A stretch of 64,000 bases of DNA from Escherichia coli (GCF_024502345.1 NZ_JALDNN010000001.1); one strand, 5' to 3'; positions 16,650-17,175 are shown, counted from the first letter of the stretch. Notes: generated from the letters alone by a model not told the origin. Made by a program: numbers and translations.

Positions 16650-16886
16650 TCATTCTGAATCTTTGAACAAAGGCAATCCTTGCGAACGCCGCCATTCTTT
16701 GACGATTTTCAGGATGTTTTCAGGTTTACCATCTTCTGGGGAATTAGGATAGAAAATGGGATCTCCCTTTTTAGGATGTTCAGTAATTTTAATGAAATGA
16801 TCCACTAAGGTATCGAGATATTTTTCTAATTTTTTCCCTTTTAGGGATTTATCTTTGCTAGTTGCATTTACTATCTCCTCAAGCAT
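16650..16886 (-). pseudogene. Orphan Im7/Im9-family DNase immunity gene copy 3, apparently frameshifted near its 5' end (78-aa remnant)
   Basis: Conserved C-terminal ENILKIVKEWRRSQGLPLFKDS tail; upstream ATG is in a different frame from the conserved TEGEFLEMLEE segment. Confidence 0.5.
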
Positions 16887-16986
16887 TTCAAGAAATTCAC
16901 CTTCTGTGTAAAAATATATTTTAAATCATGCATATACATTATCTCCTGTAGTGAATTTCATCATGTAGTCGAGACGTAACAATCCT

Positions 16987-17175
16987 TTAATTATCAATAT
17001 CATAAATTTCGCCACCACATTCAATCGCAACACTATGATATATATGGAATTCTTCAACAATTTCCTTAGATCCATAATGCCAACCTTCAAGAGGCGCTTT
17101 TGCGATTAATCCTTGTTTTATACGTGTTTGGTTACCAGTTGAAAACTGCGCTATCAACTCCGGATACTGACTCAC
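16987..17175 (-). pseudogene. Orphan C-terminal fragment of colicin-type HNH DNase toxin, copy 3 (premature stop after DIDN)
   Basis: Matches last part of the 593-aa toxin (PELIAQFS.GNQTRIKQGL); stop interrupts HNH motif; intact tail LHDEIHYRR readable beyond the stop. Confidence 0.55.

What the first reader, a model, noticed from the sequence alone, without database searches (positions are those of the whole stretch)
16650..17175. Third, most distal module is doubly degraded
The toxin fragment (16987..17175) stops right after DIDN (TAA where the parent has TTA), yet the downstream DNA still encodes ...VTSRLHDEIHYRR. The immunity gene seems frameshifted near its start (the ATG frame reads MYMHDLKYIF... 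while the conserved TEGEFLEMLEE... continues in another frame), leaving a 78-aa ORF from an internal Met. The array therefore shows a decay gradient with distance from the full-length gene.
Basis: seen in the sequence. Interest (0 to 1): 0.5.

Follow-up and report, generated by a model that had tools for sequence, protein, structure and literature searches.

The report
Broken spare toxin-immunity cassette in E. coli
This is the last spare cassette of a known E. coli type VI secretion toxin/immunity island (Hcp-ET3-4); its toxin stub has long been dead in every strain, and its immunity gene was recently broken by a 7-base deletion in this one lineage, so it is an ordinary pseudogene.

Summary
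Window 16650-17175 (- strand) is the terminal orphan cassette of the Hcp-ET3-4 island between aroP and pdhR. The full-length gene (19025-20806) encodes Hcp + Pyocin_S + colicin-type DNase, and Im7/Im9-family immunity genes follow it.

- **Toxin stub.** It ends at TAA just after the DIDN asparagine (E9 N118). The two C-terminal metal-binding histidines are lost, but the DNA still reads RIVTSRLHDEIHYRR in frame.
- **Immunity gene.** It has lost one copy of a tandem TAAAATA TAAAATA. That leaves a 22-codon leader and a 78-aa ORF starting inside helix I.

The two lesions differ greatly in age. The TAA is in all 845 complete E. coli genomes that carry this stub, and no TTA version exists. The 7-bp deletion is in none of 1028 complete genomes. 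It does occur in at least six independent assemblies of one close lineage, so it is real but private.

The "decay gradient" reading fails. Stubs 1 and 2 are also dead, through a 1-nt frameshift and a lost first His. Module order differs between strains. In 263 genomes, including Nissle 1917, a type-3 toxin with this immunity type is the armed primary gene.

This is a known system with a routine pseudogene. The predicted consequence is loss of protection against type-3 attackers.

The parts
19025..20806 (-). Full-length Hcp-ET3-4 effector gene (593 aa): Hcp tube domain + Pyocin_S + colicin/pyocin DNase (HNH) domain
   Evidence: Pfam T6SS_HCP 28-139, Pyocin_S 309-450, Col-Pyo_DNase 460-591. NCBIfam TssD, 124.7 bits against a cut-off of 58.9. 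575 of 593 residues identical to UTI89 tssD. HH, N118, H127 and H131 all present when aligned to colicin E9.
18738..19022 (-). Cognate immunity gene imm0 (94 aa, intact)
   Evidence: ORF. Scores 1.00 against the imm0 of FDAARGOS_943, APEC O18 and UTI89 (all WP_000471928.1), annotated as bacteriocin immunity protein.
17244..18639 (-). Two tandem 698-bp copies of orphan module 1. Each has a toxin stub (18331-18570; 17633-17872) with a 1-nt frameshift, plus an intact 96-aa immunity gene (18040-18330; 17342-17632).
   Evidence: the repeat finder spacing of 698. 6 differences between the copies. 1-nt gap after AATTTAAGGA. The stubs read ...DIDNLRRAHLICMMKFITGDS*.
16987..17184 (-). Orphan toxin stub 3. 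Homology to the full-length gene starts at TGGCTGGAGGTGAGTCAG (17184). The 62-aa ORF runs 16987-17175.
   Evidence: Reads IYH instead of HH (E9 H102 to Y). Annotated in RefSeq as hypothetical protein or pyocin-S2/colicin E7-DNase domain protein.
16987..16989 (-). TAA nonsense codon directly after the HNH asparagine (DIDN = E9 N118). It removes H127 and H131.
   Evidence: Alignment to the parent TTA. E9 numbering. Present in 845 of 845 genomes with this stub, with no TTA version. All o3-type stub proteins retrieved from the 5.8-billion-protein database end at DIDN.
16939..16986 (-). Residual in-frame 3' end of a toxin gene (RIVTSRLHDEIHYRR + TAA). The TAA overlaps the first ATG of the immunity gene (TAATG).
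   Evidence: Frame 1. About 90-100% identical to the 3' end of the type-3 primary toxin genes of L003 and L005.
16871..16939 (-). Frameshifted 5' end of imm3: a 22-codon ORF, MYMHDLKYIFTQKVNFLKCLRR*. The likely real start is the second ATG at 16933, 9 nt after AGGAG.
   Evidence: frame 0. RefSeq starts the intact gene at the second ATG.
16917..16923 (-). The single remaining TAAAATA unit, the site of the 7-bp deletion. Relatives have two tandem units.
   Evidence: Three-way alignment. The junction is present in L006, L007, L009, L010, L012 and L013 and absent from all RefSeq loci fetched. 0 of 1028 complete genomes carry it.
16650..16886 (-). 78-aa remnant ORF of imm3, from the internal Met19. 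It lacks residues 1-18, that is the N-terminal turn and the first third of helix I. It keeps helices II-IV and the GD(P)IFYP motif.
   Evidence: Full-length homology to Im7, Im9 and ImAP41 starts at residue 3. The AF2 model places helices at 4-10, 13-29, 36-53 and 73-86 (mean pLDDT only 64.7).
16591..16627 (-). 13-bp stem hairpin followed by UUUUCGC: a terminator-like end of the array
   Evidence: RNA fold, -17 kcal/mol, z = -2.1. The same flank follows whichever immunity gene is last in other strains.

Best explanation
The region is the terminal orphan toxin-stub/immunity cassette of the E. coli Hcp-ET3-4 island, and both of its genes are non-functional here.

**How the island works.** The full-length gene makes an Hcp tube protein fused to a colicin-type HNH DNase, which a type VI secretion system fires into neighbouring cells. 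The small Im7/Im9-family proteins encoded downstream bind such DNases and block them. The extra cassettes are recombination relics whose immunity genes are kept as protection against E. coli armed with other toxin variants.

**Cassette 3.**
- The toxin stub has no delivery domain. It has lost the first His of the HH pair and is cut by TAA before the last two metal-binding histidines. It is a recombinant scar that is dead in every strain.
- Its immunity gene (imm3) is the partner of the 'type-3' Hcp-ET DNase carried as the primary toxin by about 5% of E. coli, including Nissle 1917.
- In this lineage one copy of a tandem 7-nt repeat was lost, probably by replication slippage. That shifts the frame after codon 8.

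**Consequence (inferred).** At most a 20-22-aa peptide and an N-terminally truncated 78-aa protein can be made. The lineage has lost, or strongly reduced, protection against type-3 attackers. It keeps imm0 and two copies of imm1.

**Shown versus inferred.**
- Shown: the lesions, their distribution, the domain identities and the pairing of imm3 with type-3 toxins.
- Inferred: slippage as the mechanism, loss of function of the 78-aa product, and the ecological consequence.
For: - **Domains:**
- **Structure homologs and catalytic residue mapping:**
- **Same locus and architecture as UTI89 Hcp-ET3-4 (UTI89_C0121):**; reviews PMC6730261 and PMC6099711.
- **7-bp deletion against intact 96-aa alleles:**
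- **Deletion absent from 1028 complete genomes:**
- **Deletion present in six independent assemblies of one lineage:**
- **TAA universal:**
- **imm3-type gene directly follows an intact type-3 toxin in every fetched strain armed with it:**. 263 genomes carry that toxin, in every listed case inside a tssD gene.
- **Mosaic origin of the stub and positional 3' flank:**
- **Independent disruption of the same gene by IS1 in MNCRE44:**
- **An L-to-P change in the helix III motif precedes the deletion.** It is shared with the nearest intact relative, FDAARGOS_943, and is compatible with relaxed selection on imm3 in this lineage.
Against: - No expression or functional data exist for this allele.
- The 78-aa ORF keeps helices II-III, which carry the DNase-binding residues in Im7/Im9 (from my own knowledge of those complexes). 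A weak SD-like AAGGTG lies 11 nt upstream of its ATG, and the leader ORF stops 11 nt downstream of that ATG. Some truncated protein could therefore be made and might retain partial activity.
- A review of Ma et al. 2017 says that all three immunity copies neutralise the UTI89 toxin. Immunity specificities may therefore overlap, and the loss may have no phenotype.
- The cognate pairing of imm3 with the type-3 toxin rests on gene adjacency only.
- The AF2 model used for helix boundaries is of modest confidence.
Confidence: 0.85

Rival explanations
1. The 78-aa ORF is still a working immunity protein. It would be translated by re-initiation after the 22-codon leader or from the weak internal SD, and the N-terminal 18 residues would be dispensable. 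On this view the module is only singly degraded.
For: - Helices II-IV and the D-x-I-F-Y-P motif are retained.
- The leader stop lies 11 nt past the internal ATG, and an AAGGTG lies 11 nt upstream of it (read from the sequence).
- The allele persists in several samples of the lineage.
Against: - The ORF starts six residues into helix I of a small four-helix bundle.
- All intact family members fetched here, and the PDB homologs, keep the full N-terminus.
- The allele also carries L-to-P in helix III.
- Persistence within one close lineage needs no selection.
Confidence: 0.1
2. A general decay gradient. Cassettes are added next to the full-length gene, so the most distal one is the oldest and the most eroded.
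For: - Within this window the order is: intact, then a dead stub with intact immunity (twice), then a dead stub with broken immunity.
- Sequential-displacement models exist for V. cholerae T6SS arrays (cited in PMC6730261).
- AHB7 carries only the type-3 pair next to pdhR. That fits type 3 being ancestral at the pdhR end.
Against: - The immunity lesion is private and recent. The cassette is otherwise identical to the nearest intact allele.
- imm3 is intact in essentially all of the ~1028 complete genomes that carry it. MNCRE44, with an IS1 insertion, is the one exception seen.
- Each toxin stub of modules 1, 2 and 3 has the same two kinds of lesion.
- Module order varies, and type 3 can be primary, middle or last.
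Confidence: 0.1
3. The 7-bp deletion is a sequencing or assembly artefact, and the gene is really intact.
For: None of the 5426 complete RefSeq E. coli genomes has it.
Against: The identical junction occurs in six independently assembled contigs from different ENA and SRA samples (L006, L007, L009, L010, L012, L013). All are nearly identical to the window in the flanks. A 7-nt unit is not a typical homopolymer error.
Confidence: 0.02
4. Recoding. A -1 ribosomal slip on the U-run (A UUU UUA, 16909-16915) rejoins the leader to the immunity frame. The product would be a near-full-length protein, MHDLKYIF-YTEGEF..., so the frameshift would act as a regulatory device.
For: The required shift is -1, and it lies exactly at a run of five U (read from the sequence).
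Against: - There is no canonical X XXY YYZ heptamer.
- No stimulatory structure was sought or seen.
- The arrangement arose from a simple deletion in a gene that is in frame in over 1000 other genomes.
- There is no conservation to support it.
Confidence: 0.02

Closest known systems
Hcp-ET3-4 / ETI3-4 locus of UPEC UTI89 (UTI89_C0121; Ma et al. 2017, Virulence 8:1189, read only through reviews PMC6730261 and PMC6099711)
   Same: - Same chromosomal site (aroP-pdhR).
- Same Hcp + Pyocin_S + colicin-DNase architecture.
- 575 of 593 residues identical, and imm0 scores as identical.
- The effector gene is followed by several Im-family immunity genes, including imm1 and imm3 types.
   Different: - UTI89 has one copy of module 1 and an intact 96-aa imm3.
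- The window has module 1 duplicated and imm3 broken by a 7-bp deletion.
- The reviews speak of 'three duplications of the immunity gene' and do not mention the interleaved dead toxin stubs.
Colicin E7/E9 and pyocin S2/AP41 DNase-immunity pairs (PDB 7cei, 1emv, 4uhp, 4qko)
   Same: - The DNase domain aligns over ~120 residues (E = 1e-29 to 1e-24), with HH, N118, H127 and H131 conserved in the full-length gene.
- The immunity protein aligns end to end with Im7, Im9 and ImAP41 (E = 2.5e-20 to 1e-13).
   Different: - Delivery is by fusion to the T6SS tube protein rather than by receptor-binding and translocation domains.
- The genes are chromosomal, with no lysis gene seen in the array.
Orphan cdiA-CT/cdiI and rhs-CT/rhsI modules (Poole et al. 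2011, PMC3150448)
   Same: - Arrays of 5'-truncated toxin C-terminal fragments, each followed by an immunity gene.
- The stubs begin at a conserved junction shared with the full-length gene: here LWLEVS, there VENN.
- Modules are exchanged between primary and orphan positions in different strains.
- Orphan immunity genes are retained.
   Different: - The EC93 orphan toxin tested there is functional when fused to the full-length gene.
- Here all three stubs in the window carry inactivating lesions, so only the immunity genes can matter.
- The modules are much shorter (~700 bp).
Orphan immunity gene arrays of Vibrio cholerae T6SS auxiliary clusters (Kirchberger et al. 2017, as cited in PMC6730261)
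   Same: Immunity genes of displaced effectors are retained downstream of the current effector-immunity pair, and are proposed to protect against kin that still carry the old effector.
   Different: I did not read that paper itself. In the E. coli locus the order of modules is shuffled between lineages rather than strictly sequential.

Membership tests
Hcp-ET3-4 T6SS effector island | N-terminal Hcp (TssD) domain fused to Pyocin_S and colicin-type DNase domains | tested here: met
   Pfam PF05638, PF06958 and PF21431 on the 593-aa product. TIGR03344 above its cut-off.
Hcp-ET3-4 T6SS effector island | Effector gene followed by several colicin/pyocin-type immunity genes at the aroP-pdhR site, as in UTI89 | tested here: met
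   Window ORFs. UTI89 annotation and protein comparison. Reviews.
Hcp-ET3-4 T6SS effector island | T6SS-dependent delivery and DNase-mediated killing | not testable with these tools
   Reported for the UTI89 and ETEC proteins, according to reviews of Ma et al. 2017. No T6SS core cluster lies in the window.
Colicin/pyocin immunity protein (PF01320, Im7/Im9 family): module-3 gene | Complete ~82-position domain (four-helix bundle) in one reading frame | tested here: not met
   The intact allele matches model positions 2-82. In the window the frame breaks after codon 8, and the 78-aa ORF starts at residue 19.
Colicin/pyocin immunity protein (PF01320, Im7/Im9 family): module-3 gene | Conserved helix III motif D-L-I-[YF]-Y-P | tested here: inconclusive
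   D, I, F, Y and P are present, but L is replaced by P in the window and in FDAARGOS_943. The effect is unknown.
HNH (beta-beta-alpha-Me) colicin-type DNase: module-3 toxin stub | Catalytic and metal-binding residues H102, H103, N118, H127 and H131 (E9 numbering) in one frame | tested here: not met
   The stub reads IYH (H102 to Y). TAA falls right after N118, so H127 and H131 lie beyond the stop.
Orphan toxin-CT/immunity module (CDI/Rhs/T6SS type) | 5'-truncated toxin fragment that shares a conserved junction with the full-length gene, lacks the delivery domain, and is followed by an immunity gene | tested here: met
   Homology begins at TGGCTGGAGGTGAGTCAG (LWLEVS) in all three stubs. The upstream sequence is unrelated intergenic DNA.
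Orphan toxin-CT/immunity module (CDI/Rhs/T6SS type) | The same module occupies the primary position in other strains | tested here: met
   This holds for the immunity gene and the last ~50 nt of the toxin: type-3 is primary in L003, L005, L016 and L018. It does not hold for the stub's mid-section, for which no full-length gene was found.

The most novel reading that the evidence does not exclude
The broken imm3 allele is not null. Either a truncated 78-aa immunity protein (by re-initiation) or a near-full-length product of a -1 slip on the U-run is made and still neutralises type-3 Hcp-ET DNases. That would mean helix I of an Im-family protein is dispensable in vivo, or that the gene is recoded.
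Probability: 0.08. Interest if true: 0.35.

Novelty: already known. Interest (0 to 1): 0.12.

Why it matters
It matters little beyond annotation. The region should be labelled as an orphan toxin remnant plus a frameshifted bacteriocin-immunity pseudogene of the Hcp-ET3-4 island.

The useful by-products are comparative:
- E. coli strains carry at least two alternative armed states of this effector, type 0 and type 3.
- Many strains armed with one type carry the other type's immunity gene as an orphan (UTI89, Nissle and O2:H6 do; AHB7 does not).
- The orphan toxin stubs in type-0 strains are uniformly dead, while the immunity genes are kept.

This supports 'immunity hoarding' over 'toxin reservoir' for this locus. 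It also gives a simple testable prediction: the window's lineage should be killed by Nissle-type (type-3) attackers, and its nearest relative FDAARGOS_943 should not.

Tried and rejected
- **Ma et al. 2017.** The primary paper (PMC5711352 / DOI) is not held. I used two reviews and one 2025 survey instead.
- **TTA (intact) version of the stub.** A 55-nt query was designed so that megablast needs the central base. It found nothing, whereas the TAA version hit 845 genomes. The test depends on conserved flanks.
- **Intact parent of the stub.** A protein search with the repaired stub returned only short orphan fragments, with no full-length toxin of that type. The word-seeded search gave only 34 candidates, so it is not exhaustive.
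- **The 78-aa ORF as a distinct short immunity variant.** The exact-sequence look-up found 21 contigs. Six of the eight examined show the same deletion junction. One (L008) has a different 5' disruption, and one (L011) starts at a contig end. Rejected.
- **Assembly artefact.** Rejected on the same evidence.
- **Promoter/terminator scan of the array.** It gave no more sites than shuffled sequence and was not used as evidence. Only the terminal hairpin is noted.
- **Literature search for aroP + pdhR + type VI secretion.** No papers were found.
- **AF2 model of imm3.** Mean pLDDT was only 64.7. I used it only for approximate helix boundaries.

Full report
**What is in the window.** On the - strand between aroP (21384-22757, + strand) and pdhR (15430-16227) lies a 5-kb island.
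- **Full-length gene.** A 593-aa gene at 19025-20806 has Pfam domains T6SS_HCP (28-139), Pyocin_S (309-450) and Col-Pyo_DNase (460-591). It passes NCBI's TssD model.
- **Cognate immunity gene.** imm0, 94 aa, lies at 18738-19022.
- **Three ~698-bp repeats follow**. Each holds a 5'-truncated toxin fragment that begins at the same junction (TGGCTGGAGGTGAGTCAG, protein LWLEVS), an immunity gene, and a hairpin-containing spacer.
- **Repeats 1 and 2** are a tandem duplication with six differences.
- **Repeat 3** is the finding.

**Identity of the locus.** It is E. coli DNA: the aceEF-lpdA flank is 99.4% identical to many genomes, with no exact match. About one fifth of 5426 complete E. coli genomes carry the island (1058 match module 3; 948 cover at least 80% of the whole array).

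RefSeq annotates it as tssD plus 'bacteriocin immunity protein' genes. The stubs are annotated as 'hypothetical protein' or 'pyocin-S2/colicin E7-DNase domain-containing protein'.

UTI89 has the same arrangement, and its TssD shares 575 of 593 residues with the window's. Reviews name UTI89_C0121 as Hcp-ET3-4. [quoted passage not shown] I could not read the primary paper.

**Checking the observation.** All statements hold.
- **The stub.** The ORF (16987-17175) ends ...IYDIDN, then TAA. The parent has TTA at that codon.
- **Downstream of the stop.** The same frame reads RIVTSRLHDEIHYRR and then a TAA that overlaps the immunity ATG.
- **The immunity start.** It reads MYMHDLKYIFTQKVNFLKCLRR*. The conserved YTEGEFLEMLEE... 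lies in the -1 frame, and the first start there is Met19. That gives the 78-aa ORF 16650-16886.
- **The lesion.** Alignment with FDAARGOS_943 and APEC O18 shows loss of one unit of a tandem [22 protein letters not shown]_943 is otherwise identical over the 651 nt compared. With both units the gene encodes a 96-aa protein. That protein matches PF01320 over model positions 2-82 and aligns end to end with Im7, Im8, Im9 and the pyocin S2 and AP41 immunity proteins.

**What the toxin lesion removes.** The parent DNase aligns with colicin E9. That alignment places HH at H102/H103, the last N of DIDN at N118, and the two histidines of LHDEIH at H127/H131.
- Stub 3 has IYH in place of IHH and stops right after N118.
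- Stubs 1 and 2 have MDH and a 1-nt deletion after DNLR. It throws H127/H131 out of frame.

All three stubs are therefore dead, each by the same two kinds of lesion.

**Age and spread of the two lesions.** I designed a 55-nt query so that megablast needs the central base. The TAA version hits 845 genomes and the TTA version hits none. In the 5.8-billion-protein collection every stub of this type that was retrieved ends at DIDN, and no full-length toxin with this mid-section turned up. The nonsense codon is old and fixed.

The deletion junction, by contrast, is in none of the 1028 complete genomes that hold this part of imm3. All of them align with the 7-nt gap.
- An exact look-up of the 78-aa product found 21 contigs.
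- Of the eight examined, six show the same junction: L006, L007, L009, L010, L012 and L013.
- These six differ from the window by 0-8 substitutions in up to 4.5 kb of flank. The nearest intact genome, FDAARGOS_943, differs by 18.
- The other two are a different 5' disruption (L008) and a contig end (L011).

The deletion is therefore real, recent and confined to one lineage. That lineage and FDAARGOS_943 also share an L-to-P change in the GD(L/P)IFYP helix III motif. One ST131 genome, MNCRE44, has an IS1 in the same first codons of imm3.

**What imm3 is for.** In O2:H6 PG20180057, Nissle 1917, AHB7 and FDAARGOS_536, an imm3-type gene sits directly behind a full-length tssD. The DNase of that tssD differs from the window's parent exactly in the segment before the HNH motif: SKDSVLLAQFIKSNQNNVSQGYSPYVPEEGYYYG versus SQDPELIAQFSSGNQTRIKQGLTAKAPIDGWHYG. 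By my own knowledge of the E9-Im9 complex, that segment is the immunity-binding exosite. 263 genomes carry this type-3 toxin, in every listed case within tssD.

Nissle and O2:H6 in turn carry an imm0-type gene as an orphan, preceded by an intact type-0 stub. imm3 in type-0 strains is therefore best read as an orphan immunity gene against type-3 attackers. This matches the model proposed for CDI/Rhs orphans (PMC3150448) and for V. cholerae arrays (cited in PMC6730261). Cognate pairing here is inferred from adjacency, not tested.

**Origin of the stub.** A sliding comparison shows a mosaic.
- The first ~150 nt of stub 3 are 94-100% identical to the other stubs and 96% identical to the parent.
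- The middle is of its own type. The closest match is the orphan-B stub of O2:H6, at 84-88%.
- From about 15 nt past the TAA onward, the last ~50 nt of the toxin frame and the whole immunity gene are 98-100% identical to the type-3 primary pair.
- The 3' end of whichever immunity gene is last, and the flank towards pdhR, are the same regardless of immunity type.

Modules are therefore shuffled by recombination at two conserved segments: the LWLEVS region and the ENILKIVKEWRRSQG-coding end of the immunity genes. Observed orders:

| Strain(s) | Order of modules |
|---|---|
| Window | P0-i0, o1-i1, o1-i1, o3-i3Δ7 |
| UTI89, APEC O18, FDAARGOS_943 | P0-i0, o1-i1, o3-i3 |
| ST131 (Ecol_244) | P0-i0, o1-i1, o3-i3, o1'-i1' |
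| Nissle, O2:H6 | P3-i3', o0-i0', oB-i1' |
| FDAARGOS_536 | P3-i3', o1-i1, o3-i3 |
| AHB7 | P3-i3 |

Position in the array is not a clock.

**Verdict on the interpretation.** 'Doubly degraded' and 'frameshifted' are right. The 'decay gradient' is true only as a description of this one window. It comes from an ancient, universal toxin lesion coinciding with a private, recent immunity lesion.

**Likely consequence.** The 78-aa ORF lacks residues 1-18. A modest-confidence model puts helices at 4-10, 13-29, 36-53 and 73-86, which agrees with the Im7 alignment. The ORF therefore starts inside helix I of a small four-helix bundle.
- Some translation is conceivable. A weak AAGGTG lies 11 nt upstream of the ATG, and the leader stops 11 nt downstream of it.
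- I consider a stable, fully protective product unlikely (about 0.1).
- A -1 slip on the U-run could in principle rejoin the frames, but nothing supports it (about 0.02).

**Novelty.** The system is known and the feature is an ordinary lineage-specific pseudogene. Interest is low. The comparative picture is a modest by-product: two armed states, widespread cross-immunity through orphan genes, and uniformly dead stubs in type-0 strains. It comes with a clear competition-assay prediction.

Noticed in passing
window 17244-18639: Orphan module 1 is tandemly duplicated (2 x 698 bp). All six differences cluster at 17959-18066, in the immunity 3' end and spacer hairpin. The closest relatives (FDAARGOS_943, L006, L013, UTI89) have a single copy, so the duplication is even more recent or more variable than the 7-bp deletion.
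   Followed up: partly
window 17633-17872 and 18331-18570: The toxin stubs of modules 1 and 2 are also inactivated. A 1-nt deletion after DNLR shifts H127/H131 out of frame, and MDH replaces HH. The same frameshift is present in UTI89, APEC O18, ST131 and Nissle-type arrays.
   Followed up: yes
window ~16704-16706 (codon P61 of imm3, GAT CCC ATT): An L-to-P substitution lies in the conserved helix III motif GD(L/P)IFYP of imm3. Among the imm3 alleles fetched it is shared only with FDAARGOS_943 and the deletion lineage; every other one has L. It may be an earlier weakening hit on the same gene.
   Followed up: partly
L003 4488-5020 and L016 2888-3420 (O2:H6 PG20180057, Nissle 1917): In type-3-armed strains the first orphan stub is an intact type-0 HNH fragment (78 aa, with QIHH and LHDEIHYRR) followed by an imm0-type gene. 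This is a 'loaded' cassette that could be recombined onto tssD, unlike the dead stubs in type-0 strains.
   Followed up: partly
L004 4056-4830 (MNCRE44) and L008 ~1950-2050: These are independent disruptions of the same first codons of imm3. MNCRE44 has an IS1 insertion. One metagenome contig has the 5' end replaced by unrelated DNA next to a DegT-like gene, which may be a chimeric assembly.
   Followed up: partly
imm1 genes, window 17342-17632 and 18040-18330: No full-length toxin with the orphan-1 type mid-section was found in the searches made. The attacker that imm1 (kept in two copies here) protects against is therefore unidentified.
   Followed up: partly
window 22916-25272: A GPH-family symporter gene and an adjacent 316-aa gene (it looks like a GH43 glycosidase, which I did not test) lie between aroP and ampE. 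FDAARGOS_943 has the symporter gene beside aroP as well. UTI89 and APEC O18 have neither gene, and aroP abuts ampE there.
   Followed up: no
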